Origin: Spirochaetota bacterium | GTDB taxonomy: Bacteria; Spirochaetota; UBA12135; COTS27; CAXSBA01 | Assembly: GCA_965277105.1 (NCBI GenBank) | Contig: OZ255710.1 | Coordinates: 792,730 to 856,729, forward strand | Direction: 5' to 3' | Length of the DNA: 64,000 nt | In this document: piece by piece, positions 5,631 through 32,316 of the stretch | Layout of the letters: every line of letters starts with the position of its first letter | How positions within the stretch are numbered: the first letter of the stretch is position 1 | Translations under genes and position numbers: made by a program | Notes under the pieces: generated by a model | What the model saw: only the letters and a program-made list of their open reading frames with translations | What the model was told of the DNA's origin: nothing | Databases searched by the model: none

Positions 5631-5703
5631 GCCCACATAGCTCAGTTGGTAGAGCACTTGCATGGTAAGCAAGAGGTCAGCAGTTCAATCCTGCTTGTGG
5701 GCT
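5631..5703 (+). tRNA. tRNA-Thr (anticodon GGT)
   Basis: Manual cloverleaf: acceptor gcccaca/tgtgggc, D arm gctc/gagc, anticodon stem cttgc/gcaag with loop atGGTaa, T arm agcag-ttcaatc-ctgct, discriminator t. Confidence 0.9.
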
Positions 5704-5885
5704 TATCGACCAAATCCAACCAACTTGAAATTACTAATAAAATTCCCATAAAAACTGATATAATTATAGCATGCTTATGATTAGTTGTCTAGATTAAAGC
5801 AACTGAAATGAAAATTAAAATTAATAAATTTATCGTATAGTATATTTATTATTTATTTAATATTTTATATTAAAGGAAAAAAATT

Positions 5886-7118
5886 ATGAAAAAAAAATTA
5901 TTAATGATTATAACGATTATAAAGGTCGCCTTGCTAGCCTCGGCGCTCTTTTTGGTCAGCTGTAATGAAAGAAGTGACACAGCAACACCTAGCGGAGATG
6001 ATACCCCTATCACTGACGCAAGTTGTACTTTTGTTTTTACTCCTGGAGAAGACCCAGAAGATGGTGAGGAAAATCCTTTTGATGAGAAAACAGGCGGGAT
6101 TTGTTCGGTCAAAGGCGATGTGGCTACTTTTACAACAACCTTAGCCTTTGAAGGGGAAAATGTCGAGTATACGATTTCTATTAACCAAGCTAATGGAACA
6201 TTTAAAGCTAGTATTGATGAAACTGATGAAATTACTGGTAAAGTTACAGTTAGTAATGATGGGAAAAAATGGGAGTGGGTGTTCCTTAATTCAATTGCTA
6301 CCTTGGAGATTACAGGTGATATTAGCGGAGGTGATACTAGCGGAGGTGATACTGCAACAGCTGAGGGCAAGGTTCTTTTTAAAGAAGGAAATAATGAATT
6401 TGGCGATATCTACGCTGGCGTTACTAATATGACGTGCACCCTTGAAGTGGAAGAAGCCGGTAAATCCCCGATAACCTATAACGGGATTTGCGGTAAAAAC
6501 AATGTGGAGGGATTTATTGCTTTTTACGATAAAGAAGATAACCCGAGCGTATCTGCTCGTTTGATTGTTCCCCATAACCAATACCCTGCCGAAGAAATCG
6601 AATATAGTGAGGCAGAAGCTATAAAAGAGAAAAACCCTACTGCTACTACTAAAGTTAGCCGAGAGAATAACGTCTGGGAAGGGAAAATAACTGATGGGGG
6701 AACTGATCTTTTGAAACTCACCATCACCACCGAAGACATAGTAGTGGCCGCTCCAGCAGATAGTAAGCCCTGTCAACTTGTAAATAAAATAATCGGTTAT
6801 GTTAAAATAAACAACTACACCTTAGACGGAAACTGCGTGCTGGCCCGTGATGCTAATGACGCCGTTACCAAACTAGACTTCACCAGCTCGCTAGCCAACC
6901 CTCCGGTCACCAGCTCTCTCCCAATCGGAGAAAAACAGATCCTTGTCTCCAGAGACAAGATCCCCCTAGTTAAGGATGTCTACCGTATTGGGGGTTATCT
7001 TTATAATGGTATTGGTAATACATTTGCAACTATTGATTTTAATAATGATAATGATAATACATTTACCACAAAAGCAAATTATACTACCATCTACGAATTT
7101 GATATTGTGCTCAAATAA
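5886..7118 (+). CDS. Paralogous surface lipoprotein, 3 Cys-pair modules (A-type 5' end)
   Basis: Signal peptide plus lipobox MKKKLLMIITIIKVALLASALFLVS|C. RBS aaagga lies upstream. Three modules each begin C-x-(F/L) with a second Cys ~17-24 aa later (SCTFVF...GICS; MTCTLEVEE...GICG; KPCQLV...GNCV). The core is shared with six neighbouring genes. Confidence 0.8.
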   Translation: MKKKLLMIITIIKVALLASALFLVSCNERSDTATPSGDDTPITDASCTFVFTPGEDPEDGEENPFDEKTGGICSVKGDVATFTTTLAFEGENVEYTISINQANGTFKASIDETDEITGKVTVSNDGKKWEWVFLNSIATLEITGDISGGDTSGGDTATAEGKVLFKEGNNEFGDIYAGVTNMTCTLEVEEAGKSPITYNGICGKNNVEGFIAFYDKEDNPSVSARLIVPHNQYPAEEIEYSEAEAIKEKNPTATTKVSRENNVWEGKITDGGTDLLKLTITTEDIVVAAPADSKPCQLVNKIIGYVKINNYTLDGNCVLARDANDAVTKLDFTSSLANPPVTSSLPIGEKQILVSRDKIPLVKDVYRIGGYLYNGIGNTFATIDFNNDNDNTFTTKANYTTIYEFDIVLK

Positions 7119-7356
7119 CTAGTTCCTTAAAAAGCGCCCCACGACTAAGCTAAGCTTCTAAACCATTCGTGGGGCGGGGACTTTTCTTCTCCGCCGGGGG
7201 TTGTTCTCCGCCGGGGGTTGCTAAACTTCTTCTATTTCTTCTATTTCCTCTAATAATTTTTTTAAAATTAAAACAACTGAAATGAAAATTAAAAAATTAG
7301 ATTGAATAAATTTATTGTATAATACATTATTATTTAATTTAATTCTAATTTAATTT
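7119..7356 (+). repeat. Conserved inter-paralog cassette (terminator hairpin, GC-rich 17-mer, phased TTCTAT repeats, promoter, RBS)
   Basis: The same ~240-bp block recurs at 8314..8589, 9517..9757, 10975..11160 and (broken) 11440..11677. It contains tctccgccgggggttgt twice in tandem (7188..7221), ttctat at 7230 and 7239, caactgaaatgaaaattaaaa, and TATAAT at 7318..7323. Confidence 0.8.
7135..7176 (+). terminator. Stem-loop after lipoprotein gene (10-bp GC-rich stem, 22-nt loop)
   Basis: cgccccacga (7135..7144) pairs with tcgtggggcg (7167..7176) and is followed by gggacttttcttct. The loop is large and the U-tract weak, so terminator function is inferred. Confidence 0.5.
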
Positions 7357-7371
7357 ATGAGGAGAAAAATT

Positions 7372-8313
7372 ATGACAAAAAAATTATTAATGATTATAAA
7401 AATCACCATGCTAATTTCGGTACTCTTTTTCGCCAGCTGTAACAGTAGCAGCAGTAGCAGCGATACAGCAACACCTAGTGGAGGTGATACTGCAGGTGAT
7501 ACTGCAATTGGAGAGGTCATCGGCACAACTGAGGGCAAGGTTCTTTTAATGAATAGTGGAAACTCTGAAATTGCCGGTGTCCACAATGGCGTTACTAATA
7601 TGACGTGCACCCTTGAAGTGGAAGAAGCCGGTAAATCCCCGATAACCTATAACGGGGCTTGCGATAAAGACACTTGGGAAGCAGTTATTTCTTTTCGCGA
7701 TAAAGAAGATGACCCGAGTATATCTGCTCGTTTGGTTGTTCCCCATACCTATTACTTTACCGAAGAAATCGAATATAGTAAGGCAGAAGATGTAGTCCGA
7801 GACAACCCTACTGCCACTACTAAAGTTAGCCGAGAGAATAACGTCTGGGAAGGGAAAATAACTGATGGGGGAACTGACCTTTTAAAACTCACCATCACCA
7901 CCAAAGACAAAGTAGTGCCCGCTCCAACAGGTAGCAAGCCCTGTCAACTTGTAAATAAAATGATCGTTTTTGAAAAAATAGACAACTACACCTTAGACGG
8001 ATACTGCGTGCTGACCTATGATACTGCTGGCACCACCGTTACCAAACTAGACTTCACCAGCTCACTAGCCAACCCTGCCGTCATCATCTCGCTCCCAATC
8101 GGAGAAACCGACCAGGTCAAAGCAGAAAGTGTACTAGACAATCGCTCCCTTTTTAAGGATGCCTATCTTATTGGGGGTTATCTTTATAATGGTATTACTC
8201 TTGAAACGACTATTGATTTTAATGATAATAAGAATAATACATTTACCGCAAAAATGAATTATGATAATGGTAATGGTGTGGCATCCGAATTTGATATTGT
8301 GCTCACCGAATAA
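7372..8313 (+). CDS. Paralogous surface lipoprotein, 2 Cys-pair modules (B-type 5' end)
   Basis: The ORF opens at 7357, but aggag at ~7362 followed by ATG 7372 gives MTKKLLMIIKITMLISVLFFAS|C. The Ser/Thr/Gly linker precedes the conserved core MTCTLEVEEAGKSPITYNG.C ... NNVWEGKITDGGTDLLKLTI ... KPCQLVNK...LDG.CVL...TKLDFTSSLANP. Confidence 0.8.
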   Translation: MTKKLLMIIKITMLISVLFFASCNSSSSSSDTATPSGGDTAGDTAIGEVIGTTEGKVLLMNSGNSEIAGVHNGVTNMTCTLEVEEAGKSPITYNGACDKDTWEAVISFRDKEDDPSISARLVVPHTYYFTEEIEYSKAEDVVRDNPTATTKVSRENNVWEGKITDGGTDLLKLTITTKDKVVPAPTGSKPCQLVNKMIVFEKIDNYTLDGYCVLTYDTAGTTVTKLDFTSSLANPAVIISLPIGETDQVKAESVLDNRSLFKDAYLIGGYLYNGITLETTIDFNDNKNNTFTAKMNYDNGNGVASEFDIVLTE

Positions 8314-8589
8314 CTAATAACTAGTTCCTTAAAAAGCGCCCCACGACTACTCTCAACTAAGCTGAACTTCTAGGCTTTCTTAGCTACTCGTAGGTGGCTT
8401 GTGGGGTGGTCGTGGGGCGGAGACTTTTTCTCTCCCCCTCCGCCGGGGGTTGTTAAACTTCTTCTATTTTTTCTATTTTTTCTATAAATTTTCTAGATTA
8501 AAGCAACTGAAATGAAAATTAAAATTAATAAATTTATCGTATAGTATATTTATTATTTATTTAATATTTTATATTAAAGGAAAAAAATT
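8314..8589 (+). repeat. Inter-paralog cassette copy (long-loop hairpin 8337..8419, TTCTAT x3 at 8462/8471/8480)
   Basis: cgccccacgac (8337..8347) pairs with gtcgtggggcg (8409..8419). Then come ccgccgggggttgtt, three ttctat hexamers 9 bp apart, and the A-type promoter/leader, which is identical to 5788..5885. Confidence 0.75.
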
Positions 8590-9516
8590 ATGAAAAAAAA
8601 ATTATTAATGATTATAACGATTATAAAGGTCGCCTTGCTAGCCTCGGCGCTCTTTTTGGTCAGCTGTAATGAAAGAAGTGACACAGCAACACCTAGCGGA
8701 GGTGATACTGCAATTGGAGAGGTCATCGGTACAGCTGAGGGCAAGATTTTTTTTAAAGGAAGTGGAAAACCTGAGATTGGCAATGTCTACGCTGGCGTTA
8801 GTAATATGACGTGCACCCTTGAAGTGGAAGAAGCCGGTAAATCCCCTACAACCTATAACGGGATTTGCGGTAAAAGCGACGTGGAAGTAGCTATTTCTTT
8901 TCGCGATAAAGAAGATGACCCGAGTATATCTGCTAGTTTGGTTGTTCCCAATATCTATTACCTTACCGAAGAAATCGAATATAGTAAGGAAGAAACTATA
9001 AAAGGGGAAAACCCTCATGCCACTACTACGGTTATCCGGAAGAATAACGTCTGGGAAGGAAAAATAACTGATGGGGGAACTGACCTTTTAAAACTCACCA
9101 TCAAAACCAAAGACAAAGTAGTGCCCGCTCCAACAGGCAGTAAGCCCTGTCAACTTGTAAAGAAACAAGTCTACTCCGATTATTTAAACGACTACACCTT
9201 AAACGGGAACTGCGTGCTGGCCTATGATACTGCTGGCACCACCGTTACCAATATAAACTTCACCAGCTCGCTAGCCAACCCTCCCGTCACCGCCTCGCTC
9301 CCAATCGAAGAAATCGAGATCACCGAAGACAATCTATCTATTCTGGATGATTATTTCTACCGTATTGGGGGTTATCTTCATGCTAATATTGATTATGTAG
9401 CTAGCCAATCAGGCTCTATTAATGTTTTTAAAAAACCTGCAAATGATAACGAATTTACCGCATTGTTTTATCTGCCAAACACGGTATTGGAATTTGATAT
9501 TGTGCTCACCGAATAA
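8590..9516 (+). CDS. Paralogous surface lipoprotein, 2 Cys-pair modules (A-type 5' end)
   Basis: The first ~37 codons are identical to gene 5886 (MKKKLLMIITIIKVALLASALFLVSCNERSDTATPSG). The core resembles 7372..8313, and the C-terminal third is shared with 13071..13976 (LPIEEIEITEDNLSILDDYFYRIGGYLHANIDY). Confidence 0.8.
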   Translation: MKKKLLMIITIIKVALLASALFLVSCNERSDTATPSGGDTAIGEVIGTAEGKIFFKGSGKPEIGNVYAGVSNMTCTLEVEEAGKSPTTYNGICGKSDVEVAISFRDKEDDPSISASLVVPNIYYLTEEIEYSKEETIKGENPHATTTVIRKNNVWEGKITDGGTDLLKLTIKTKDKVVPAPTGSKPCQLVKKQVYSDYLNDYTLNGNCVLAYDTAGTTVTNINFTSSLANPPVTASLPIEEIEITEDNLSILDDYFYRIGGYLHANIDYVASQSGSINVFKKPANDNEFTALFYLPNTVLEFDIVLTE

Positions 9517-9757
9517 CTAGTTCCTTAAAAAGCGCCCCACGACTAAGCTAAGCTTCTAAACCATTCGTGGGGCGGGGACTTTTCTTCTCCGCCGGGGGTT
9601 GTTCTCCGCCGGGGGTTGCTAAACTTCTTCTATTTCTTCTATTTTTCTAATAATTTTTTTCTTCTAAGTTAAAACAACTGAAATAAAAATTAAAAAATCA
9701 AATTGAATAAATTCATTGTATAATACATTATTATTTAATTTAATTCTAATTTAATTT
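9517..9757 (+). repeat. Inter-paralog cassette copy (hairpin 9533..9574, tandem GC-rich 17-mers)
   Basis: Near-identical to 7119..7356. cgccccacga (9533..9542) pairs with tcgtggggcg (9565..9574). Confidence 0.75.
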
Positions 9758-10974
9758 ATGAGGAGAAAAATTATGACAAAAAAATTATTAATGATTATAA
9801 AAATCACCATGCTAATTTCGGTACTCTTTTTCGCCAGCTGTAACAGTAGCAGCGACCCAGCAACGCCTAGCGGAAAAGAAAATACCGGAAATGATACCAC
9901 TATCACTGACGCAAGTTGTACTTTTGTTTTTACTCCTGGGGAAGACATAGGAAATCAAATACCTACTTTATGACAAAACCGACGGGACTTGTTCGGTCGA
10001 AGACGGTGTGGCTACTTGGAAACGAAGCGCTTTAGCGGGAAATAGCGATATATACGGTTTCTTTTAACCAAGCTAATGGAACATTTAAATATATATATGA
10101 TGCTGATGGAGTTAATCAATTAAATCTGGACTTTCCTGGTACAGTTACAGTTAGTGATGATGGGAAAAGATGGGAGTGGAAGTCGTCTGATTCAACTGGT
10201 ATCATTGAGATTACAGGTGATAGCGGAGGTGATATTAGCGGAGGTGATACTGCAATTGGAGAAGTCATCGGCACAGCTGAGGGCAAGGTTCTTTCTAAAG
10301 ATCTTGGATTTGGTAGAAATACCTACGATGGCGTTACTAGTATGACGTGCACCCTTGAAGTGGAAGAAGCCGGTAAATCCCCGATAACCTATAACGGGAT
10401 TTGCGATAAAAACAATGTGGAGGGATTTATTGCTTTTTACGATAAAGAAGATAACCCGAGCGTATCTGCTCGTTTGACTGTTCCCCATAACCAATACCCT
10501 GCCGAAGAAATCGAATATAGTGAGGCAGAAGCTATAAAAGAGAAAAACCCTACTGCTACTACTAAAGTTAGCCGAGAGAATAACGTCTGGGAAGGGAAAA
10601 TAACTGATGGGGGAACTGATCTTTTGAAACTCACCATCACCACCGAAGACATAGTAGTGGCCGCTCCAGCAGATAGTAAGCCCTGTCAATTTGTAAATAA
10701 AATAATCGGTTATGTTAAAATAAACAACTACACCTTAGACGGAAACTGCGTGCTGGCCCGTGATGCTAATGACGCCGTTACCAAACTAGACTTCACCAGC
10801 TCGCTGGCCAACCCTGCCGTCATCATCTCGCTCCCAATCGGAAAAAGCGACGAGATCAGCTCAGACAATCCAGACAATCGCTCCCAGTTTAAGGATACCT
10901 ATTGGGGATTATTGGGGATTATCTTTATGCTAATGGTGTGGCATCCGAATTTGATATTGTGCTCAAATAACTAG
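9758..10974 (+). pseudogene. Chimeric lipoprotein paralog with at least 3 frame disruptions
   Basis: The B-type signal peptide is followed by a gene-5886-like first module. The frame changes near 9950-9970 and again near 10055-10065, and the homologous protein is readable in three successive frames. A 10-bp tandem duplication attggggatt x2 (10901..10920) plus an internal deletion wrecks the C-terminus. Confidence 0.75.
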
Positions 10975-11160
10975 TTCCTTAAAAAGCGCCCCACGACTAC
11001 TCTCAACTAAGCTAAGCTTCTAAATCATTGGGGCGGGGACTTTTTCTCTCCGCCCTCCGCCGGGGGTTGTTAAACTTCTTCTATTTCTTCTATTTTTTCT
11101 ATAAATTTTCTAGATTAAAACAACTGAAATAAAAATTAAAAAATCAAATTGAATAAATTA
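10975..11160 (+). repeat. Inter-paralog cassette copy (truncated at its promoter end)
   Basis: Same hairpin, ccgccgggggttgtt, ttctat and caactgaaat elements. It breaks off after ttgaataaatta, where the fragment patch begins. Confidence 0.7.
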
Positions 11161-12092
11161 TTGATTTTAATGATAATAAGAATAATACATTTACCGCTGT
11201 AACAGTAGCAATACAGCAACACCTACCAATACTAACGGAACAGGAGATAACGGAGGTGTACTACTACCCCTAATGCAAATTGGTTCAAGATGAAAATAAG
11301 CATCTTAGAGAATAATGCGAATTTGATATTGTGCTCAGCGGCAAATGTCGAGTATAAGTTTAAATAACTAGTTCCTTAAAAAGCGCGTCCACGACTGCTA
11401 CCTTGGAGATTAAGCTAAGGCTTCAATTAAAGGGCAAGGTTCTTTCTAAAGATCTTGGATTTGGTTCGTGGGGCGGGGACTTTTTCTCTCCGAAGTGGAA
11501 GAAGCCGGTAAATCTCCGCCGGGGGTTGTTAAACTTCTTCTATTTCTTCTATTTTTTCTATAAATTTTCTAAGATTAAAGCAACTGAAATGAAAATTAAA
11601 AGAGAAAAATTAATAAATTTATCGTATAATATATTTGTTATTTGAAATTTAATATTTTATATTAAAGGAAAAAAATTATGAAAAAAAAATTATTAATGAT
11701 TATAACGATTATCACCAAAGGCCAACCCTGCCGCCTTGCTAGTTTAAGGATACCTCGGCGCTAACGACTATTTTTGATAATAAGAATAATACATTTACCG
11801 CAAAAATAGTAGCTAAACAGTATTGTGCTCAACAACAGGGCCTAGCGAAGAAGCTAAGCTTCTATGGGGCGGGGACTTTTTCAAGGCGTGTTAAATTTCT
11901 TTTTTCTATAAAGCAAAATGAAAATTAAAATGAACATAATATATTGATACTAAAGTCTACAAGGAAAAAAATTATGAAAAAAAAATTAGTAGTATGACGT
12001 GCACTGCTAGCCGAGGTGGTTGCAAGAAAACGGTATGGACAAGGCGTGATTTCTTTTGAAGACTAATGACATTGATACTAAATATGTAGTTA
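11161..12092 (+). other. Patchwork of 10-40-bp fragments of the lipoprotein genes and cassettes (non-coding)
   Basis: Recognisable pieces include ttgattttaatgataataagaataatacatttaccgc (=8213..), aaatgtcgagtata (=6160..), gctaccttggagatta (=6297..), agggcaaggttctttctaaagatcttggatttggt (=10283..), gaagtggaagaagccggtaaatc, two A-type ATG starts (11678, 11974), and terminator/promoter pieces. No long ORF is present. Confidence 0.7.
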
Positions 12093-12826
12093 GTAGTATG
12101 ACGTGCACTCTCGAATGTGGAAAACGGTAAAGATTACTAATTTGTAGTAAAAACAAGATGGAAACAAAGATTACTTTTGAAGATAAACCAGTTGACCCGA
12201 ACGTGTCTGCTGATTTGATTATTGTCAGTTCTAAAGGCATCGAAAAATATAGTAAGGCAGAAGATGTAGTCCGAGACAACCCTACTGCCACTACTAAAGT
12301 TAGCCGAGAGAATAACGTCTGGGAAGGGAAAATAACTGATGGGGGAACTGATCTTTTAAAACTCATCATCAAAACCCAAGACAAAGAAGTGACCGCTCCA
12401 GCAGGTAGTAAGCCGTGTAAATTTCTAAAAAAAGAAATCAATAATTATAGTTTTGACAACTACACCGCAGAGGGAAACTGCGTGCTAACCTATGATACTG
12501 ATGGCACCACCGTTACCGACATAGACTTCACCAGCTCGCTAGCCAACCCTCCCGTCACCGCTTCTTTCCCAGTAGGAAGTGGAGATACTCCCATCACCGA
12601 AGACAATCAATCCCTTTTTAAGGATGTCTACCGTATTGGGAGTTATCTTTATGAAACTATTGATTTTATAATTGGAACAGCAGATCCAATTATTAGTATT
12701 GTTAAAAATCCTAATAATAATATATTTAATTTAGAATTTAAATACGCTGGCGGTGAAGTATTTCACTTTGATATTGAACTCACCGACGACGGAACTGGAG
12801 ATAGCGAAACTAGAAGTGACGGATAA
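12093..12826 (+). pseudogene. 5'-degraded lipoprotein paralog (no signal peptide; intact 3' two-thirds)
   Basis: agtagtatgacgtgcactctcgaatgtgg is a decayed MTCTLEVEE motif that runs into stops. ORF 12158..12826 then encodes the conserved NNVWEGKITDGGTDLLKL, KPCKF...EGNCVL and FTSSLANPPVTAS core, with a unique C-terminus. Confidence 0.65.
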
Positions 12827-24661: not shown

Positions 24662-24684
24662 AATTTTTTTCTCCTTTATTATTT

Positions 24685-25200
24685 TTATTTTTTATCTAAA
24701 AGTTGTTGTAATTTTTGTTTTAATCCTATGACGTTAGTAATATTATGGGGCATGATATTTTGCGGGCCCATTTGGGTTAAAACTTGATTGTCTTTCATCG
24801 CATCTAAAATCCCTTCCAATATAGCAAGCAAACTTTGCCCACCAGCGCTTATGGCGATTTTTCCATTTTCTTTTAGATGAATACTGACATCTTCTTTCAT
24901 GAGCTTAATCCCTTTTTCATAAGCCATATCAATTTTCCCCATAATGAAACTGTTATGATAATTCTCTTTAAAGAAAAACTCCTGGTCAGTTAGGCTGTCT
25001 TCTAAGGGATAACCGGCTAGGGCCACCACCACGATGTCATCTTTTTCGTAGTTGAAAACGATAGAATTATCCGCTCCTGCGGCCATCAAAGCCCTTACTC
25101 CTTTGACGATGCCCAACTTGCCCTCGCTATCTTTCAAGAGCGGCTGCACGTCATAGGTGCCGTCTTCGTTATTTGCGGTAATTTGCCCTTTATAAAACAT
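24685..25200 (-). CDS. Baseplate spike/assembly protein V-like (OB-fold)
   Basis: The likely start is MFYKGQITANNEDGTYDVQPLL (ATG 25200), not 25239. The G.V...D....V.V......G......V and DDIVVVALAG pattern resembles gpV/gp45 N-domains. Confidence 0.45.
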   Translation of the reverse strand: MFYKGQITANNEDGTYDVQPLLKDSEGKLGIVKGVRALMAAGADNSIVFNYEKDDIVVVALAGYPLEDSLTDQEFFFKENYHNSFIMGKIDMAYEKGIKLMKEDVSIHLKENGKIAISAGGQSLLAILEGILDAMKDNQVLTQMGPQNIMPHNITNVIGLKQKLQQLLDKK

Positions 25201-25912
25201 ACAACAACTGGTAGCTAATTTGCCCCTTATAAAATACACTAACGATTTTATGGATAATCCCCGAGTACGGCCCCTCTAACTTTTGCATTAACGAAAAGTC
25301 TTTGATGCCTTGACTGGCAATCATCCGATAATTATTACTCATTTTTTTCATTTCTTCTCCTCGATCAAAAAAAGCCAATTGCTCTCCTTTTTCTTCCACT
25401 CCCTCATAGGATAGGAACTCGTAAATGCTACTGACTTTGTTCGTGGTCGTGTGGGTATTCGTAACCTCGACCCGATTTTTATTCCAAACCCAGATCATCT
25501 TCAATGGCCAAAAAACCTCATTTAATAGTTTTTTAATTTGAATTTTGCACGGGATGTGATAATTCACCCGCGCTTTATCTTCTCCATAACTCACCACTTC
25601 GACCTCGCTAAATACCTGAGAAAAATTACTATCCTTTTTAATAAAAAAGTTTTTCACGTTATCATATAGCGGATAATCCAAATAACCCCAGATATAAAAC
25701 TTTTTATTTTCAATATAAAAACGGTTGATTTTAAAAGTGAATTTATTAATAGTAACGATGCTACGTTCCTTAAAAATCTGGTAACTATTTTTGGGATTTA
25801 AAATCTCCACTTTGGCGATATTCCTCCCCAGACTTTCAATTATCTCAAAATTAAAATCCGCCTCACTCAGGTCGTGGGTGCGATTATTATTATTAATCGT
25901 AAAGAGCATCAC
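25190..25912 (-). CDS. Hypothetical baseplate hub-region protein
   Basis: 240 aa. Coding is supported by operon context and start/stop overlaps. No motif is recognised. Confidence 0.3.
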   Translation of the reverse strand: MMLFTINNNNRTHDLSEADFNFEIIESLGRNIAKVEILNPKNSYQIFKERSIVTINKFTFKINRFYIENKKFYIWGYLDYPLYDNVKNFFIKKDSNFSQVFSEVEVVSYGEDKARVNYHIPCKIQIKKLLNEVFWPLKMIWVWNKNRVEVTNTHTTTNKVSSIYEFLSYEGVEEKGEQLAFFDRGEEMKKMSNNYRMIASQGIKDFSLMQKLEGPYSGIIHKIVSVFYKGQISYQLLYVL

Positions 25913-26142
25913 TAGTTTCGCCTATCTCCAAACTCCAGCATCCCATCACTGGTAACGCCCTTTAAATAAAGCAAACCAAAAAATACCGATACCCCCTTGC
26001 GGACAAAATCCCCTTGAACAAAAACGCCGTTGCGGTAGAGGAGGAAGTAGTAGTCGTTATGGATTTCTCTAATCTCCAAGTCGTAGTATTCATTCCCGTT
26101 TTTTACTGGGTAACGGGTTCCCGGTTTAAGTTTTACTGTCAT
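25912..26142 (-). CDS. Hypothetical small tail protein
   Basis: 76 aa. Its stop abuts the next start (25912). Position matches gpU/X-type small proteins, but no motif is recognised. Confidence 0.3.
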   Translation of the reverse strand: MTVKLKPGTRYPVKNGNEYYDLEIREIHNDYYFLLYRNGVFVQGDFVRKGVSVFFGLLYLKGVTSDGMLEFGDRRN

Positions 26143-26169
26143 GCCTGATGTTTTCCTTAGTTCAATAAT

Positions 26170-26733
26170 TTAGCCAATTAGATTACTTTGTTTAATGAAG
26201 TTATCTAAAGCTAGTAAATTAACCTTAGACTTTTTCCCTTTGGCGTTAGTTTTTCTCTCTACTTCGTTAAAGCTCACATTAACGAGGAGGTTATTGATCC
26301 CATCCACGCCCCTTACTTTGCGCTCACCCAAACTAGTGATAATGAGATTCTCATTTTTTTCTTCATAACCAAATAAAGTCAACTTAGTTTTCTCGCTTTT
26401 CCATTTGTCTAAGCGCTCTTTTCTGCTAAGGGCCGTCAGTGGCGAGTCGTACAAGTTTTTATTAATAAGCGAATCGTAATAGTTTTTCAACGATAAAGTT
26501 TCACTAATCAGCCAACCACTTAAGTTGATTTTTTTACGCTTATCAATAATGAGGTTATTCTCGTTGTCCTCTTTCACCTCGCCAATGTTCGACACGTCAT
26601 TAGCCGAAAGCGAGTTGTAACTTTCAATGACGTTAAAAAACACACTCTCATAGCGGCCCCCTAACTTTTCTTCATTGACTAAGAAAACTAAAAAATTCTT
26701 GGACTTTAAATTCCTTCTAATGTTGGTGATCAT
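26170..26733 (-). CDS. Hypothetical tail protein downstream of tape-measure candidate
   Basis: 187 aa. Its ATG directly follows the TAA of the upstream reading frame (taaatg at 26731..26736). Confidence 0.3.
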   Translation of the reverse strand: MITNIRRNLKSKNFLVFLVNEEKLGGRYESVFFNVIESYNSLSANDVSNIGEVKEDNENNLIIDKRKKINLSGWLISETLSLKNYYDSLINKNLYDSPLTALSRKERLDKWKSEKTKLTLFGYEEKNENLIITSLGERKVRGVDGINNLLVNVSFNEVERKTNAKGKKSKVNLLALDNFIKQSNLIG

Positions 26734-27599
26734 TTACTTAGCCCCCTCACCAACTCCGCCATTGACTTCATTTTCGTTGCGGTTAAACGCCCCTTTCAGC
26801 CAACCAGCGAGGCCTCCTTCTCTATTCATTAGGTTAAGAATATCGCTAAGCTCAATCTTAGGAAATTTCTCTAAAAGCTCGTTTTTAAAGTTCGCTATTT
26901 CTTTCACGATAGCATCTTCAACGGTTTTGACAATAGGACTTAAAATCCCCTTCCCTTCAAAGCCGGAGCCACAATCTCTTGTTCTCCCTTGGTTATATTT
27001 TGAACGTTTTTCATAAATCCTCCGACCGAATCCTTACCGCCTTGGAAGAAGCTTACAAGATTATCAATAAAGCCTTTCGACCCTTTAGTTGCTAAACTAG
27101 GCAGAAAACTTTTTAATGATGGTAACTTAAGGTTTAATAAATCCTTAATCCCATTACCCAATTCTCCTTTAGCGTTCGTGAATATTTCTTTTAAGAAAGA
27201 AAACGGTTGAGAGTTTTTGCTAAAATAATTTTTTATCCCACTTAAAATACCATTGCCTTCACCAAAAAGTTTTTTAGGTAAATCAGTAAAACTCTTAAAC
27301 TTCTCTTTAAACGCCTCCATTAGCTTCTGCCAATCTTCGCCTACTCTTTCTTTCACTTCTTCTTTTTTTTCGTTGAAGTCATTTAAGAAGTTCTGGCTTT
27401 TTTCTTGGATTTCTTGCCAGATATTTTTCCCTAATTTTTCTTTACTTAAATCTTTTAGAAAAGCTAAGTTCCCTTTTAAATTTTCTTGGTTTATTGCAGA
27501 AAGTTGTTGATTGATTTCTTTTAACCAACCACTCTGCTCACCCGGCAACTTTAAGTTCATCGAAAAATCTTTTATTGCTAAATCTGCCATTGTTGTCAT
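26734..27599 (-). CDS. Tape-measure candidate, split into a 219-aa ORF plus a start-less ~90-codon ORF in the -1 frame
   Basis: Gly/Lys/Phe-rich low-complexity sequence in the position after the chaperone pair. ORF 26940..27599 stops at GRGF*. A second frame, open from ~27010 to TAA 26734..26736, reads ...GFEGKGILSPIVKTVEDAIVKEIANFKNELL...GAK and has no ATG giving 60 aa or more. Confidence 0.4.
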
Positions 27600-27823
27600 G
27601 ATAAATCCTCTAATTTTTGAGCCATCTTTCCCAACTCTTTAGGGGATCGCGAAAGCATAAAAGCCATGGAAGTTTGCAGCATCCGCTCTTGCTCTTTTTT
27701 TTTATAGGCCTTATAAAAATCCAAAAGCTCGGTTACGGTGATTTTATTAAAATCTTCCAATTTCACGACCCCACTAACGAGAAGTTCTTGCTTAATCTTT
27801 TTTATTGTTTGATAATGTTGCAA
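27596..27823 (-). CDS. Tail assembly chaperone, downstream/overlapping frame
   Basis: 75 aa with a TTG start, overlapping the upstream ORF by 32 nt in the +1 frame. It sits between tube and tape measure, the canonical G/GT (E/E') position. Confidence 0.45.
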   Translation of the reverse strand: MQHYQTIKKIKQELLVSGVVKLEDFNKITVTELLDFYKAYKKKEQERMLQTSMAFMLSRSPKELGKMAQKLEDLS

Positions 27824-28067
27824 TTTTCTCTTTTATCTCTTTATGGGTTCCAGTGATAATGTGCTTTTTAAGTTTTGCATTTTCTACTGCTACCTTATTC
27901 GTCGTAATAAAAATCCATAAAAAAGTTAATAAGAGCTCAATGTTTTCTTTACCAAAAACTTGGTTGCGATCTAACGCTTTGGTATCCCCCTCATCGTCTT
28001 CTTGCCAAACAAACCTAGTGGTTAAATCAACCACCGCATAGTGCATCAGCTTGCTGTAGTCTTGCAC
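27792..28067 (-). CDS. Tail assembly chaperone, upstream frame
   Basis: 91 aa, between tube and tape measure. It ends ...SNNKKD* across an A6 run (T6 on the plus strand, 27798..27803). Confidence 0.45.
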   Translation of the reverse strand: MQDYSKLMHYAVVDLTTRFVWQEDDEGDTKALDRNQVFGKENIELLLTFLWIFITTNKVAVENAKLKKHIITGTHKEIKEKIATLSNNKKD

Positions 28068-28240: not shown

Positions 28241-28639
28241 CTAAGTTCCCGTTATCGTGTCGGCCTTAATAGTTACCGCCACTTGGGCACTCTCTCCTCC
28301 CGTTCTATCTAAACGCACTACTCGAGCTCCCGAACAAACCGTAGGAACTTTAATTCCTCCTCGTTTGAAACTAAGGACAAAAGTAGTGTCAGTTTCTTTT
28401 AACCCAAATAAAATATCAAAAGCTTTCGTGCCATCGAAAATGTTAAAATTCACTGTCCCGCTTTTATCGGCCATCGTCACATGCTGGGCTCCCCCGCCTG
28501 CTCCAATAACGATATTACTACCGTCAGAGGTCATAGTGATTGCCACATCTTGGTCGCCAAAATCTTTTCGATCGATTAAAAACCCATTGATGATTAAACT
28601 ATCTAAATGTTTTTTATAAATTGAAATTGAATTAGCCAT
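28241..28639 (-). CDS. Tail tube protein (candidate)
   Basis: 132 aa, beta-rich, immediately after the sheath-sized gene. The call is from size and order. Confidence 0.5.
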   Translation of the reverse strand: MANSISIYKKHLDSLIINGFLIDRKDFGDQDVAITMTSDGSNIVIGAGGGAQHVTMADKSGTVNFNIFDGTKAFDILFGLKETDTTFVLSFKRGGIKVPTVCSGARVVRLDRTGGESAQVAVTIKADTITGT

Positions 28640-28650
28640 GGTTTACTCCT

Positions 28651-29613
28651 TTAATTTTCTATGATTATGTTAGCCGTTATTTTTTCTACGCTACCAGCTA
28701 AAGCAAAATTGACATGAACTCTTACTAACCTATTGTTTTTATCGTCATCGGTTTGACTATCGAAATCGGGAATATTGATCTCGTAATCGTATTTTTCTCC
28801 GTTGATGTTACGAACAATTCCTTCTTGCCCTAAGGACTGGAAGGCGTCGATAAGGACACTTTCTATTTTAAAAAAGCCTGTGGCATCATAACTAACCCTT
28901 TTATCATTTAACAGCAAAGCCTTCAGCTTGTTTTTTAAATTCTGTCTGATATAATCTTTAGCATAAAGCTTATCGATATGCTCTCCTTGAGAGTTAATCC
29001 CGGTCCCACTGTAATAGTTGCTGCCGTCCACGTAAAAAACATTAATCTTGTCATTTTTTAACTCATTTAAGTTGTTAAAAATACTTGGCTTATAATTGAT
29101 TAGTCGATTAGCCCAAGTAGATTGGGGAAAATTTGCTAAACAATTACTCACCCATACCCCGATGACCTCGACTTTATTCCTCACATATACCAACCGGTTG
29201 TTTTCATAGTGGTCTTGTGTTTTCCCTTCTGTTTGCTGGAACACTAACCCAGTATCTCCTAAAACATTTTCCACAACCTGCTTAGCATCTAAACTTTCGT
29301 CTAAAAGGACAGTAGCATAAATCGCGTTATCCCCTAAAGCTTTTTTAAGCTCCTGGTCGTAGTCTGCTTTATACTTAGCGTAATACACTTCTTCTAGTTT
29401 AACGTCTTCGCTAAAGATAGCGTTTAAAGTGTTTTTAGCTTTCTCGCTTAAAGCGTCTAACTTATCGGTTCCCTTATCGTTAATCGTATAAGTTTTTGTT
29501 TCGAAGCTACCATCGGTTGCTGTTTCTTTGTCTAATAGTAATAAATTTCTCGCACTAGCACTAGGTTGATACTCATTATTAATATTGATATTAATCATTG
29601 TTAAAGAACTCAT
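28651..29613 (-). CDS. Contractile tail sheath protein (candidate)
   Basis: The ORF opens at 29658, but aaaggagaaacaATG places the start at 29613 (MSSLTMINI..., 320 aa). It is the largest structural gene directly upstream of the tube-sized gene. The call is from order and size, and I do not see a diagnostic motif. Confidence 0.55.
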   Translation of the reverse strand: MSSLTMINININNEYQPSASARNLLLLDKETATDGSFETKTYTINDKGTDKLDALSEKAKNTLNAIFSEDVKLEEVYYAKYKADYDQELKKALGDNAIYATVLLDESLDAKQVVENVLGDTGLVFQQTEGKTQDHYENNRLVYVRNKVEVIGVWVSNCLANFPQSTWANRLINYKPSIFNNLNELKNDKINVFYVDGSNYYSGTGINSQGEHIDKLYAKDYIRQNLKNKLKALLLNDKRVSYDATGFFKIESVLIDAFQSLGQEGIVRNINGEKYDYEINIPDFDSQTDDDKNNRLVRVHVNFALAGSVEKITANIIIEN

Positions 29614-29635
29614 TGTTTCTCCTTTAATTTTTTTT

Positions 29636-30079
29636 TCATTTTTTTTCTTTGATAACAAGCTCGTTGTTATAATTGATGTTTTCTATTTTTTCTTTACTAA
29701 ATTGATTTTTTCTAAAATATTTTATTCCTAAGGTCAAAGTTCTAAAAGGGAGGAAGTCGTCCTTATACCCCATAGTGCCTAGGTCTTTTACTTCGACCAC
29801 GCAATCAGAGTAATTAGTCTCATCGAAATAATTTTTTATTTTAAAAACTAATTCATCTAATTCTTCATGGGCACTAATATCTTTGTCTCGGCCAATAACT
29901 TCCAAGCTCACCCTTTCATAGATGCGATATTCGGCGGTGCTATACCAATCATCCATTCCCACTAATCGCCAAATAAGATTAATGGCTTCACCTTTGATGA
30001 CCTCTCCGGTAACGTGATAGGCAATGTCATCGTTAACTAAGTAATCTTTTAAACGTTGATTAATTGCAATTAATTTCAT
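29636..30079 (-). CDS. Hypothetical neck/tail-completion protein
   Basis: 147 aa, immediately upstream of the sheath. Position only. Confidence 0.3.
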   Translation of the reverse strand: MKLIAINQRLKDYLVNDDIAYHVTGEVIKGEAINLIWRLVGMDDWYSTAEYRIYERVSLEVIGRDKDISAHEELDELVFKIKNYFDETNYSDCVVEVKDLGTMGYKDDFLPFRTLTLGIKYFRKNQFSKEKIENINYNNELVIKEKK

Positions 30080-30203: not shown

Positions 30204-30428
30204 TCATTTCTCTTGCCTTTTTTGCTTTTTTTTAGCAGTGGTTTTTTTGTTGGTGGTAATTTTTCTCTCAGCAACTTTTTTCGCTAATGGCTTTGTTGGC
30301 TTAACGATTAATCCACTAATTTTTTTCCCGGCAATTTTTAAGTATTGCCCAATTTTTTTGAAAGCAGAAATAATTCAATAAAAAAACTGCCTTATAGAAA
30401 CTTTTTTAAAAAACTTCATTGACTTCAT
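30204..30428 (-). pseudogene. Small Lys-rich ORF with in-frame TGA (17 + 56 codons), translationally coupled to the portal-like gene
   Basis: ATG 30428..30426 overlaps the portal-like TGA (ATGA). The product reads MKSMKFFKKVSIRQFFY-TGA(30375..30377)-IISAFKKIGQYLKIAGKK...KKQKRQEK. Its stop overlaps another 25-codon ORF start (ATGA). Confidence 0.3.
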
Positions 30429-31577
30429 CTTAACGTTACTCCTTTTAAATTATTTTTGGCTTGCTCTAAACTTATGACTTCTTTCTCCAAAAGCTCCAAC
30501 ACCATACTATTGTGGAGTTTGATTTTTTCCACGTCTTCTTTGGTTTCGTGGTTGAAGCTATTGAAAATTATCTGGTAGTCCGTTTTTCGCTTGCCTAAAA
30601 AAATCTTGATAAACTTTTCAATAATAGGTTTTATCTGGTACTCGCGAAAGGTATTCATATCACGCATAAAGTTCTCGACGTCTATTTTTTTGCCGGCTCC
30701 TAGGTTGTGCCCTCTGTTCTCTTCCCCAAAGATAATGCTTTTCGGAACCCCCGTGATGGCCGAGTGAATGTCTTTGATGCCGTCGATGAAGTGGTGAAAG
30801 TTAGTATGGACGTTGAAGTTGTGAATCTTATCAGCTTCTGGGGTAATGACGATATTCCCGGCTTTGATTTTATCGAGCATTACAGCCACCGCCTGCCTAA
30901 TCTTACCGGCTAAGTTCTGGTTAATGTTCTTGTCGTTGTAATGTTTGGATTGGTAAACTAGCGCCCCTTCGAGCTCTAAAAGCTTATCAGCTCGATGGAG
31001 GAGTTTTTCCACAATTTCCGAGTAAGGATAAATCTTCTCGGCGAAAGAAAACTGGCTATTGGGGTAAAGGTTGATCAGGCCATAACGACTAGGAGAGATT
31101 TCCTTGGGACCTCTTGCGATTTCTACTTTTACTTTTTTGATATTGTAGCGCTTATTGAAAATGTCTTTGGGGTTAAGTTTTTCTTGAATGAGATAATCCC
31201 CACTAAAAACATTGATATCCTGAAGTTGACCAATAGTGCCTTTCCTAAAAAACCCACCTACGAAAAAAACCACCGCTCCTCTTTTCGATACCAGCGAAAG
31301 TTGAATGGCTTCAAGTAAGTTTTTTTTCTAATTGAAAATGCTTGGCATACGCCTCAAAATCTTTGTCCAACTCCGCGGCAGCAAAACGTACGACAAAACC
31401 TCGAGCATAAAGGGAAGTGGTTATCGTATTGATCACCCGTAAGACTAAAGCATTGCCCACATCTTCTAAACTTCTAATCGTAGGATAAAAAACCTTTTGA
31501 TTATTCACATCGTCAAAGTAATCTAAATCAAAAGCGTTAGTTTTTTTGCCGTTTAATAAGTTAGCGATTATTCCCAT
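30425..31577 (-). pseudogene. Portal-like protein split at a homopolymer
   Basis: ORFs 31311..31577 and 30425..31273 belong together. The downstream frame is open back into the A8 run (T8 on the plus strand, 31320..31327), and removing one A gives one ~383-aa protein. LINLYPNSQFSFAEKIYP and HSAITGVPKSIIFG resemble the HK97-type portal motifs (LL..PNP....F; fGVP..ll). The family call is tentative. Confidence 0.45.
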
Positions 31578-31616
31578 TTTTTTCCTTTTTTATTTTTAAT
31601 CCTTTTCTAAATATTT

Positions 31617-32123
31617 TTAAACCTTAACGATGCCTTGATTGGCCATTTGACTAACTCGAGTGCTTTTTTCATCAGCCTTTAGCTCGGTTAAAAAACGAGA
31701 AAATTCTTTATTTACTTTTTTCACAAATAGTTGCTTTACTCTTTTTTTATACTCTAATTCTTTAAGCTTGATCTCCTAACCGAGTTTATTATTTTTTAAT
31801 TCTGCATCAATTGCCATAGTTACCATACATCATTTTGTTTTTTAGAGAAGCGAAGTTATCAACTAAAAGTTTGATTTTTTCTAAGCACTTGGTGAGCAAT
31901 TTGGATGAATAGCAGGATAGTAAAAACCTCCCTTTAATCTCTTTAGTGGCTTCCGCTCGCCCATGCCGGCAATAATTTTGAGTTTTTCGTCAAGCAAGAT
32001 AGGGGATTTAAAACCAAAATGTTCAATAGATTTTTTTATCTGCTTTATTTGGCGAGATGAGTGCATCCGAGTATTTTGCTTATAGTTTTGGATTTTTTCG
32101 AGTTTTATTTTAATTATTTTCAT
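31617..32123 (-). pseudogene. Decayed ParB-like (nuclease/methylase N-terminal domain) gene and adjoining remnant ORF
   Basis: KIKLEKIQNYKQNTRMHSSRQIKQIKKSIEHFGFKSPILLDEKLKIIAG is a ParB-N-like motif. The expected GHGR continues only in another frame (HGRAEATKEIKG...). The following 67-codon ORF (31617..31817) carries an in-frame TAG at 31776..31778. Confidence 0.5.
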
Positions 32124-32316
32124 AAAAAAAATTAATTTTCAATAGGTTTTTCACTAAAAAAATTCGTCCAAATATCGTCCAAAAAAACCGAATTAATATT
32201 ATTTATATTTTCCACCTATGTTTATTTTGCTCAGGATTTATAAGTTTTGTTGGTTTTTGTTGCCGAATATAGCCAGATTAAGCTATATTGGGGAAGTAGA
32301 AGTCTGCTTGTGGGAA

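What the first reader, a model, noticed from the sequence alone, without database searches (positions are those of the whole stretch)
5691..32314. 11-bp tRNA-Thr 3'-end duplication delimits a 26.6-kb island that lacks an integrase
ctgcttgtggg is the 3' strand of the T-stem plus acceptor stem of the tRNA (5691..5701). It recurs in the same orientation at 32304..32314, within an 18-nt stretch matching 15/18. This second copy lies exactly where accessory phage remnants give way to a core sugar ABC operon.

A specific 11-mer is expected about 0.03 times by chance in 128 kb of two-strand sequence. Finding it at the functional boundary is much less likely still. This is the classic attL/attR signature of tRNA-targeted integration.

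No tyrosine or serine integrase lies inside. The tRNA-proximal end, where an integrase normally sits, is occupied by the lipoprotein array. This suggests either that the array is cargo of the element (compare prophage-borne lipoprotein families in Borrelia cp32), or that it replaced the integration and early region.
Basis: partly seen in the sequence, partly recalled or inferred. Interest (0 to 1): 0.6.

Follow-up and report, generated by a model that had tools for sequence, protein, structure and literature searches.

The report
Composite island beside tRNA-Thr, att unproven
The 26.6 kb after tRNA-Thr in this uncultured spirochaete is real accessory DNA, made of a surface-lipoprotein gene array, an orphan cyclase-like gene and a decayed phage, but the 11-base repeat said to bracket it is probably a coincidence, so the finding is fairly ordinary.

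Summary
The 11-mer CTGCTTGTGGG occurs at 5691 and 32304 on the same strand, and no integrase lies between the copies. The genome has only two Xer-like tyrosine recombinases and no serine recombinase. Everything between tRNA-Thr(GGT) and the ABC ATPase is accessory: neither the lipoprotein family nor the tail cluster occurs in any relative.

The block is a mosaic of three parts:
- a lipoprotein array (GC 0.39)
- an AT-rich cyclase-like gene
- a decayed myovirus prophage (GC 0.36) with tail and lysis genes open, a frameshifted portal, and no capsid, terminase or early genes

The phage's early end faces the ABC operon, not the tRNA.

The att reading is weak. Twelve of 35 tRNAs here have 3'-half recurrences of at least 11 nt within 60 kb. 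The repeat stops 2 nt short of the tRNA end (AA instead of the universally conserved CT). It lies 2 nt from the ATPase stop codon. In 6 of 6 relatives tRNA-Thr is followed by tRNA-Trp-secE, never by the ABC operon. GC skew excludes a recent inversion that could reconcile these facts.

Only the repeat's position at the boundary (p about 5e-4 to 0.013) favours a true attR. I put that at about 0.2. No close relative exists for an empty-site test.

The parts
5631..5703 (+). tRNA-Thr (anticodon GGT). The acceptor 3' strand is 5696-5702 and the discriminator T is 5703.
   Evidence: ARAGORN. It is 100% identical to the G001 orthologue. The 3' end ...GGGCT is conserved in 7 of 7 genomes.
5691..5701 (+). 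11-mer copy 1 (CTGCTTGTGGG), inside the tRNA. It ends 2 nt before the tRNA 3' end.
5704..5787 (.). Unique 84-nt trailer between the tRNA and the first array repeat unit.
   Evidence: The array unit starts at 5788. Sequence 5788-5903 is repeated 100% at 8492-8607. An X1 contig marks a loose end at 5788.
5788..15880 (+). Tandem array of lipoprotein paralogues. Intact genes are 5886-7118, 7357-8313, 8590-9516, 13056-13976 and 14204-15880. Broken copies lie at about 9758-10974 and 11400-12826.
   Evidence: ORFs with spirochaete-type lipoboxes. The family occurs nowhere else in the genome or in 8 order-level relatives. GC is 0.39 and tetranucleotide distance is in the top 0.3%. Short-read contigs show unit-skipping joints.
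16419..17273 (+). Orphan 284-aa cyclase-like ORF, AT-rich (GC3 0.21), convergent on the phage lysis end.
   Evidence: No Pfam, PHROG, PADLOC or NCBIfam hit. Composition. The class III cyclase motifs are by eye only.
17270..19733 (-). Lysis end of the prophage. It holds small membrane ORFs, two phrog_503 small nuclease-like ORFs (17833-18532), a holin-like ORF (18529-18771) and an M15 endolysin (18790-19269).
   Evidence: Peptidase_M15_3 at 6e-16. phrog_894 endolysin at 3e-31 and phrog_503 at 3e-27.
19737..21971 (-). Two tail-fibre paralogues with a collar domain.
   Evidence: phrog_1858/523 tail fibre at 1e-15 to 1e-17. Weak Pfam Collar hit.
21987..26733 (-). Baseplate module. It holds an I-like ORF (21987-22682), baseplate J (22675-23997), a gp25/W-like sheath initiator (23987-24289) and four ORFs shared with the L049 element (24356-26733).
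   Evidence: Baseplate_J at 1e-13. phrog_6 at 2e-31 and phrog_120 at 3.5e-8. Collinear with L049 at 23-43% aa identity.
26940..28067 (-). Short tape-measure-like ORF (219 aa) and two small chaperone-like ORFs. It is followed by about 200 nt (26734-26939) with stops in all frames.
   Evidence: Weak PHROG TMP hits. The L049 TMP is 638 aa and shows no similarity.
28241..30079 (-). Tube-like ORF (28241-28639), sheath (28651-29658) and a 147-aa ORF of unknown role.
   Evidence: phrog_205 tail sheath at 7e-18. phrog_280 structural protein at 2e-8. The sheath is absent from 39 of 40 relatives.
30425..31577 (-). Portal pseudogene split into 88-aa and 282-aa ORFs in different frames. There is no capsid gene between the portal and the 147-aa ORF (30080-30424).
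   Evidence: Phage_portal_3 at 4e-10. phrog_146 at 2e-13. ORF map. Sequence.
31578..32123 (-). Degenerate stretch ending in an 80-aa N-terminal fragment of a ParB-like or DNA-methyltransferase gene (31881-32123).
   Evidence: phrog_620 at 2e-18 and phrog_498 at 4e-14, both covering only the first ~65 positions of profiles 217-633 long. PADLOC MTase_II at 2e-8.
32124..32316 (.). 193-nt boundary spacer. It holds a tandem 9-mer TCGTCCAAA x2 (32164-32183), an 8-bp-stem hairpin (32262-32285) and 11-mer copy 2.
   Evidence: No tRNA-like match at E<=10. No terminator by consensus scan.
32304..32314 (+). 11-mer copy 2. It is followed by AA and then CTA, the reverse complement of the TAG stop of the ABC ATPase.
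32317..38567 (-). Core sugar ABC operon (UgpC/MalK-like ATPase, GH, two permeases, SBP). This is the right flank, not part of the island.
   Evidence: Syntenic five-gene block in G001 at 56-77% aa identity, with the ATPase C-terminus aligned to its last codon. NCBIfam UgpC-like. Composition is typical of the genome.

Best explanation
The stretch 5.7-32.3 kb is a composite, immobile accessory region at the 3' side of tRNA-Thr(GGT) in an uncultured Spirochaetota genome. It is not one att-bounded element. It holds three modules of different composition:
1. a tandem, recombining array of surface-lipoprotein paralogues
2. an orphan AT-rich cyclase-like gene
3. a decayed temperate myovirus prophage

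The prophage has its lysis end towards the tRNA. Its early, integration, terminase and capsid modules have been deleted in place, leaving a ParB/MTase stub and a frameshifted portal at the ABC-side edge.

The right boundary is therefore a deletion or rearrangement scar. The second copy of the 11-mer there is most likely a chance match. The tRNA-Thr 3' flank is an old rearrangement point, because the otherwise invariant tRNA-Thr to tRNA-Trp-secE linkage is broken here, and it has since accumulated foreign DNA. Nothing in the genome can move the block.

Shown: anatomy, accessory status, mosaic composition, absence of recombinases, the broken linkage, and the junctions. Inferred: the order of events and that the repeat is coincidental.
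For: Accessory status: the sheath is absent from 39 of 40 relatives. The lipoprotein family is absent from the rest of the genome and from 8 order-level genomes.

Mosaic: array GC 0.39, cyclase-like gene GC 0.286 (GC3 0.21), phage GC 0.36. The array-to-phage tetranucleotide distance (0.24) is as large as either module's distance to the genome. Both flanks are typical.

Modules occur apart elsewhere: L061 is array only. L049 is a tail cluster only, and neither protein search found the other module in those sources.

Phage decay and orientation. No terminase or HK97 capsid exists anywhere in the genome, so these modules were deleted rather than relocated.

No mobility genes: only XerC/XerD-like recombinases and no serine recombinase.

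Repeat at chance level apart from its position: 12 of 35 tRNAs show recurrences of at least 11 nt. There is a third genomic copy.

The repeat fails att geometry:
- It stops 2 nt short of the tRNA end, where CT is conserved in 7 of 7 genomes.
- It abuts the ATPase stop codon, whose position is ancestral.
- No tRNA fragment is detectable at the junction.
- The candidate arms share no excess similarity.

Ancestral neighbour: tRNA-Trp in 6 of 6 relatives. A rescuing 569-kb inversion is excluded as recent by GC skew.
Against: The second 11-mer lies exactly in the 193-nt spacer between the last phage-derived gene and the first core gene. That has p of about 5e-4 (exact-match length) or 0.013 (alignment score) for a random spacer. 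Accessory DNA next to a tRNA 3' end has a high prior of having arrived by tRNA-targeted integration.

A deletion or an Int-mediated event ending at the core edge could explain both the missing CT and the abutting stop codon.

No close relative exists; the best is G001 at about 57% aa identity with synteny scrambled to blocks of 3-6 genes. The empty-site test was therefore not possible.
Confidence: 0.55

Rival explanations
1. The 11-mer at 32304 is a genuine attR remnant, and the whole 26.6 kb entered by site-specific integration into the tRNA-Thr 3' end. It arrived either as one element with the array as cargo or as tandem elements. It later lost its integrase and early genes. A later deletion, or an Int-mediated event at the core edge, removed the last two tRNA bases and the original downstream DNA.
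For: Exact same-strand 11-mer taken from the T-stem and acceptor 3' strand. It lies in the boundary spacer with p about 5e-4 to 0.013. The island begins within 85 nt of the tRNA. The block is accessory and compositionally atypical. The conserved tRNA-Thr|tRNA-Trp linkage is broken exactly at this tRNA's 3' side.
Against: - The repeat is only 11 nt, and identity ends 2 nt before the tRNA end, where a displaced tRNA end must read CT.
- It lies 2 nt from an ancestral stop codon.
- The phage's early end, where an integrase should sit, is distal to the tRNA.
- No integrase remnant appears at E<=0.01 in six frames.
- There is no middle att copy between the array and the phage.
- Composition is mosaic, and the modules occur apart elsewhere.
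- No relative shows tRNA-Thr next to the ABC operon.
- GC skew excludes a recent inversion.
- Recurrences of this length are common among the genome's tRNAs.
Confidence: 0.2
2. The tail-plus-lysis module is not mere debris. It is a domesticated tailocin-like element kept by selection. That would explain why head, packaging and integration genes decayed while about 13 kb of tail and lysis ORFs stayed open. On this view the island's immobility is a result of domestication, and the repeat is irrelevant.
For: About 22 collinear open ORFs from sheath to endolysin. All detectable decay (portal frameshift, ParB stub, missing capsid and terminase) lies outside that module. Gene lengths match the L049 relative for 7 of 8 shared genes. 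Read depth is similar to the flanks, about 47x against 37x.
Against: - The tape-measure ORF is only 219 aa, against 638 aa in the relative, and is followed by about 200 nt of stop-rich DNA. That suggests damage.
- A portal remnant and a ParB stub indicate recent decay rather than long-term maintenance.
- With roughly 4 decay events and the tail module about one third of a phage genome, sparing it by chance has p of about 0.2 (my estimate).
- No second genome carries it, so conservation and selection cannot be measured.
Confidence: 0.15
3. The juxtaposition is an assembly artefact of a long-read MAG, for example a false join through the repetitive lipoprotein array.
For: The array is highly repetitive, and short-read contigs break and show alternative joints inside it.
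Against: A 13.4-kb short-read contig runs with 0 mismatches from the left flank through the tRNA into the array start. A 25.7-kb contig spans about 21.9-47.5 kb across the right junction. Their depths are similar. Only the interior of the array (about 5.8-16 kb) and 16-21.9 kb are not independently bridged.
Confidence: 0.03

Closest known systems
tRNA-integrated prophages and genomic islands. Examples from my own knowledge are P22-like phages in thrW, P4-like elements in leuX and the HPI in asn tRNA; the general pattern is reviewed by Williams 2002, Nucleic Acids Res 30:866.
   Same: Foreign, compositionally atypical DNA starts immediately 3' of a tRNA gene. A short same-strand copy of the tRNA's 3' part lies at the far boundary. 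Phage genes lie inside.
   Different: - There is no integrase anywhere, neither next to the tRNA nor at the far end.
- The repeat is 11 nt and does not include the tRNA's last two bases.
- The phage is oriented with its lysis end towards the tRNA.
- The content is a three-part mosaic.
- No empty site is known.
Defective prophages and R-type tailocins. Examples from my own knowledge are R-pyocins of Pseudomonas aeruginosa and PBSX of Bacillus subtilis.
   Same: A contractile-tail gene set (sheath, tube, baseplate J/W, fibres) with its own endolysin. It lacks capsid and terminase genes and has no integrase.
   Different: A portal pseudogene and a ParB/MTase stub are still present. The tape measure is unusually short and possibly truncated. 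No regulator was identified. There is no evidence of conservation across strains.
Prophage-borne lipoprotein families of Borrelia cp32 (erp, mlp, bdr).
   Same: A spirochaete with a multi-copy lipoprotein family physically next to phage genes.
   Different: Here the array is chromosomal and tandem, differs in composition from the phage, and is separated from it by an unrelated gene. The only other known array (L061) shows no phage genes over 11.6 kb. There is no sequence similarity to any Pfam or PHROG family.

Membership tests
tRNA-targeted integrative element (att-flanked prophage or genomic island) | The insertion begins at the 3' end of a tRNA gene. | tested here: met
   Accessory DNA starts within 85 nt after tRNA-Thr. 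The left junction is confirmed in short-read contigs.
tRNA-targeted integrative element (att-flanked prophage or genomic island) | A direct repeat at the distal end reproduces the tRNA's 3' segment up to and including its 3' end. | tested here: not met
   The 11-nt repeat ends at position 71 of 73. The next two bases are AA instead of the CT conserved in 7 of 7 genomes. Rfam detects no tRNA fragment at E<=10.
tRNA-targeted integrative element (att-flanked prophage or genomic island) | The repeat is more than chance would give. | tested here: inconclusive
   Recurrence alone is at chance level, seen in 12 of 35 tRNAs. The position in the boundary spacer has p of about 5e-4 to 0.013 before post hoc correction.
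tRNA-targeted integrative element (att-flanked prophage or genomic island) | A tyrosine or serine integrase is encoded in the element, normally next to the tRNA. | tested here: not met
   Six-frame PF00589 and PF00239 searches of the whole genome found two Xer-like genes outside the island and no serine recombinase.
tRNA-targeted integrative element (att-flanked prophage or genomic island) | An empty site exists in related genomes, with the tRNA directly followed by the distal flank. | tested here: not met
   In 6 of 6 relatives tRNA-Thr is followed by tRNA-Trp-secE. The ABC operon lies elsewhere in G001. Caveat: the relatives are distant and scrambled, and none closer exists.
tRNA-targeted integrative element (att-flanked prophage or genomic island) | Uniform foreign composition consistent with one element. 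| tested here: not met
   There are three compositional segments. The array-to-phage distance is as large as each module's distance to the genome.
R-type tailocin or defective contractile-tail prophage | Sheath, tube, baseplate and fibre genes are present. | tested here: met
   Pfam and PHROG hits. The tube assignment rests on position and a weak structural-protein hit.
R-type tailocin or defective contractile-tail prophage | There are no capsid, terminase or portal genes. | tested here: inconclusive
   Capsid and terminase are absent genome-wide, but a frameshifted portal remains.
R-type tailocin or defective contractile-tail prophage | It has its own lysis cassette. | tested here: met
   M15 endolysin, with phrog_894 at 3e-31. 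The holin is inferred only from a small membrane ORF.
R-type tailocin or defective contractile-tail prophage | It is maintained across strains and produces particles. | not testable with these tools
   No second genome carries it, and the organism is uncultured.

The most novel reading that the evidence does not exclude
The whole block is one former tRNA-Thr-integrating spirochaete phage that carried a variable surface-lipoprotein array as lysogenic-conversion cargo at its lysis end. That would be a chromosomal counterpart of the Borrelia cp32 arrangement. The element is now immobilised, and its attR core was truncated by a recombinase-mediated deletion.
Probability: 0.1. Interest if true: 0.55.

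Novelty: new member of a known kind. Interest (0 to 1): 0.3.

Why it matters
If the att reading were right, a phage would be the vehicle of a rapidly diversifying surface-lipoprotein family in a deep-branching, uncultured spirochaete lineage. That would be of interest for how spirochaetes acquire antigenic-variation-like loci. On present evidence the locus is a commonplace composite island: decaying prophage and other foreign DNA piled up at a tRNA flank.

The useful outcomes are these:
- A short tRNA-end repeat should not be called an att site without checking that it reaches the tRNA end and without a genome-wide null.
- tRNA-Thr|tRNA-Trp-secE, an order-wide invariant, is broken in this genome.
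- The array and the tail cluster are separate objects and deserve separate study.

Tried and rejected
1. Single 569-kb inversion (825,046 to 1,393,962) restoring tRNA-Thr, island, tRNA-Trp. It fits geometrically. GC skew is uniformly negative across the segment with no break at either end, so it is not recent.
2. Prophage split by a rearrangement, with the missing parts elsewhere. No terminase, capsid or integrase occurs anywhere in the genome.
3. Arm-type sites. TCGTCCAAA x2 at 32164/32175 and TCGACCAAA at 5706 looked suggestive. The motif count is at chance level, and an unbiased arm-similarity test gave p=0.25.
4. Alternative repeats flanking only the phage or only the array. Only AT-rich matches of 10-13 nt were found.
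5. tRNA-Thr fragment beside tRNA-Trp as a reciprocal product. None was found.
6. Conservation of the intergenic DNA with G001. It is too diverged.
7. Closer strains. Exact-protein look-ups found nothing. The homologue search found nothing closer than G001 at 56%.
8. Related phages. There were no IMG/VR relatives and only hits of 31% identity or less in the phage collection. The one related element (L049) could not be extended.
9. Only narrow junction stretches worked.
10. Genetic code 4 was considered because of the low GC. Long ORFs do not need TGA=W.

Full report
**1. Observation**

- ARAGORN finds one tRNA in the window, tRNA-Thr(GGT) at 5631-5703.
- CTGCTTGTGGG occurs exactly twice in the window, at 5691-5701 and 32304-32314, both on the + strand.
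- In the tRNA it covers the T-stem 3' strand (5691-5695) and six of the seven acceptor 3' bases (5696-5701). C72 (5702) and the discriminator T (5703) are not included.
- At the second site the next bases are AA, followed by CTA. CTA is the reverse complement of the TAG stop of the ABC ATPase gene at 32317-33381.
- The best local alignment of the tRNA 3' part with the junction is 16/20.
- Genome-wide the 11-mer has one more copy, on the other strand at 1,081,663, inside a gene conserved in G001.

**2. Is the repeat more than chance?**

- For each of the 35 tRNAs of this 1.685-Mb genome I took the 3' 45 nt and asked for the longest exact recurrence within 60 kb downstream on the same strand. 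Twelve of 35 reach 11 nt or more.
- These include non-T-loop, 3'-end cases such as tRNA-Gly(TCC) at 13 nt and tRNA-Leu(CAA) at 11 nt. Recurrence alone means nothing.
- What is unusual is the position. The second copy lies in the 193-nt spacer between the last phage-derived ORF and the first core gene.
- For a random 193-nt genomic segment, a match of at least 11 nt to the tRNA's last 25 nt has p of about 5e-4. By Smith-Waterman score p is 0.013.
- After allowing for post hoc choices of k, boundary and tRNA region, this is moderate evidence, not decisive.

**3. What lies between the two copies**

The code is table 11.

- (a) 5788-15880, + strand. A tandem array of lipoprotein paralogues with spirochaete-type lipoboxes. 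Five are intact and at least two are broken.
  - The repeat unit starts at 5788, only 84 nt after the tRNA.
  - No Pfam or PHROG family matches.
- (b) 16419-17273, + strand. A 284-aa cyclase-like ORF with no family hit and a GC3 of 0.21.
- (c) 17270-32123, - strand. A myovirus-type prophage remnant. Read from the tRNA side it holds:
  - small membrane ORFs and two phrog_503 ORFs
  - a holin-like ORF and an M15 endolysin
  - two collar-type tail fibres
  - baseplate I-like, J and W/gp25-like genes
  - four further baseplate or hub ORFs
  - a 219-aa tape-measure-like ORF and two chaperone-like ORFs
  - a tube-like ORF, the sheath and a 147-aa ORF
  - only 346 nt of non-coding DNA where head genes belong
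  - a portal split into 88-aa and 282-aa ORFs in different frames
  - about 300 nt of debris
  - an 80-aa N-terminal stub of a ParB-like or methyltransferase gene

The early and packaging end of the phage therefore faces the ABC operon, and the lysis end faces the tRNA. This refutes the suggestion that the array replaced the integration and early region.

**4. Mobility genes**

- Six-frame profile searches of the whole genome find only two tyrosine recombinases, at 589.6 kb and at window ~63.5 kb. Both are about 300 aa with XerC/XerD as best models.
- No serine recombinase is present.
- No TerL_ATPase and no HK97-type capsid occur anywhere in the genome. Terminase_6N gives only a sub-threshold hit in a 644-aa ORF.
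- The missing phage modules were therefore deleted, not moved elsewhere. The block cannot move by itself.

**5. Accessory status and unity**

- The sheath is absent from 39 of 40 relatives, and the one hit is marginal.
- The lipoprotein family is confined to this array in the genome and is absent from all 8 other genomes of the order.
- Composition separates the modules:

| Segment | GC | Tetranucleotide distance to genome |
|---|---|---|
| Lipoprotein array | 0.39 | top 0.3% of windows |
| Phage remnant | 0.36 | top 2% |
| Cyclase-like gene region | 0.286 | typical |
| Both flanks | 0.32-0.35 | typical |

- The array and the phage are as far from each other (0.24) as each is from the genome.
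- In the 5.8-billion-protein collection, the array family occurs otherwise only on one 11.6-kb ENA contig (L061). That contig is array from end to end, with nine tandem genes.
- Baseplate J has one distant relative (L049, a 46% GC organism). Its tail genes are collinear at 23-43% identity, and its source shows no lipoprotein family hit.
- The two modules thus occur apart in their only other known instances.
- The block is a real accessory island but a mosaic.

**6. Comparative context**

- The closest genome, G001, is an uncultured Spirochaetota MAG at about 57-67% aa identity.
- Its synteny with this genome is broken into blocks of 3-6 genes. The fact that the two flanks lie about 418 kb apart in G001 is therefore uninformative.
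- One linkage is invariant. In 6 of 6 relatives from three or more families of the order, tRNA-Thr(GGT) is followed after 36-313 nt by tRNA-Trp, then secE-nusG-rplKAJL-rpoBC.
- In this genome tRNA-Trp-secE sits at 1,393,962 on the other strand. No tRNA-Thr fragment lies next to it.
- No relative has tRNA-Thr next to the ABC operon.
- The ATPase C-terminus aligns to its last codon with G001, so the stop codon 2 nt from the repeat is ancestral.

**7. Can the att model be rescued?**

- One inversion of 825,046 to 1,393,962 would restore tRNA-Thr, island, tRNA-Trp, secE. It would also make the repeat's right edge an inversion joint.
- GC skew shows a clean two-replichore pattern, with the origin near 1.55 Mb and the terminus near 0.66 Mb. 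The segment lies inside one replichore and is uniformly negative, with no break at either end.
- Any such inversion is therefore ancient compared with an island that is still compositionally foreign and has 13 kb of open phage ORFs.
- The model must then assume that tRNA-Thr already lay against the ABC operon when the element integrated. In that case the displaced tRNA end would abut the stop codon with no spacer, and its CT, conserved in 7 of 7 genomes, would have to have changed to AA while the 11 bases before it stayed perfect.
- A deletion or recombinase-mediated event ending exactly at the core edge is the remaining way out. It is possible but ad hoc.
- Candidate arm sequences share no excess similarity (p=0.25).
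- A 9-mer that I noticed by eye is at chance frequency.
- No intermediate att copy separates the array from the phage.

**8. Junctions are real**

- In Logan short-read contigs of run X1, a 13.4-kb contig (depth 37) runs with 0 mismatches from the left flank through the tRNA and trailer. It stops at 5817, where the repeats begin.
- A 25.7-kb contig (depth 47) covers about 21.9-47.5 kb, including 32080-32420, with 0 mismatches.
- No alternative joint appears at contig level, though contigs drop rare variants.
- Inside the array many variant contigs and unit-skipping joints are seen. This is consistent with recombining paralogues or strain heterogeneity.
- X1 may be the source sample, so this checks the assembly. 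It is not an independent population.

**9. Verdict**

- The most likely reading (about 0.55) is a composite, immobile accessory region that accumulated at an old rearrangement point 3' of tRNA-Thr. Its right edge is a prophage deletion scar, and the 11-mer there is coincidental.
- A genuine but truncated attR remains possible (about 0.2). Its only support is the positional coincidence and the general prior for tRNA-adjacent islands.
- Whether the tail-plus-lysis module is a maintained tailocin is a separate question. The intact ORFs speak for it. The 219-aa tape measure followed by stop-rich DNA and the fresh portal and ParB debris speak against it.

Noticed in passing
G000 genome 1,020,204 (tRNA-Gly TCC), outside the window: The last 20 nt of tRNA-Gly(TCC) contain a 13-mer (GATTCCCATCACC) that recurs 21.7 kb downstream on the same strand. 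This is longer than the repeat studied here. It could be a real att pair or another chance match.
   Followed up: no
L049 5012-16670 (ENA ERZ22157276 ctg13153l): The only related tail element carries three successive baseplate-W/J/I-plus-fibre cassettes (about 5.0-8.7, 9.7-13.0 and 13.0-16.7 kb). This looks like a multiplied host-range module.
   Followed up: partly
L061 1-11612 (ENA ERZ26859052): A second array of the same lipoprotein family. It has nine tandem paralogues at 51-66% identity that fill an 11.6-kb contig, with no flanking genes visible.
   Followed up: partly
window 5788-9000: Short-read contigs of run X1 show many variant pieces and joints that skip or repeat about 1.2 kb (one array unit). 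This suggests copy-number or recombination heterogeneity of the lipoprotein array in the population.
   Followed up: partly
window 32164-32183: A perfect tandem 9-mer, TCGTCCAAA x2 with an 11-nt period, lies 41-60 nt upstream of the ParB-like stub. It is operator-like. It is not enriched elsewhere in the window.
   Followed up: yes
G000 versus G001, whole genome: Synteny between these two same-genus MAGs is cut into blocks of 3-6 genes, yet GC skew in G000 is a clean two-replichore pattern. Several breakpoints sit at tRNA genes: cyclase|tRNA-Thr, and a 978-aa gene next to tRNA-Trp here but next to tRNA-Met x2 in G001.
   Followed up: partly
window 49600-58550: Homologues of these genes (a second sugar ABC importer and galactoside-utilisation genes) form the 5' flank of tRNA-Thr in G007 and G008. 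Here they lie about 44 kb on the other side of the tRNA. This may be a trace of older local rearrangement.
   Followed up: no
window 26734-27599: The tape-measure-like ORF is only 219 aa and is followed by about 200 nt with stops in all frames. The related element has a 638-aa gene at this position.
   Followed up: partly
window ~63400-64000 and just beyond: The XerD-like recombinase gene lies next to tRNA-Arg(CCT) at genome 857,320, about 600 nt past the window end.
   Followed up: no
G000 1,394,112-1,394,140 and the G001 tRNA-Thr/tRNA-Trp spacer: A consensus TTGACA-N17-TATAAT promoter lies about 100-130 nt upstream of tRNA-Trp in both genomes. In G001 it sits inside the tRNA-Thr to tRNA-Trp spacer. 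The break in G000 therefore fell between tRNA-Thr and this promoter.
   Followed up: no
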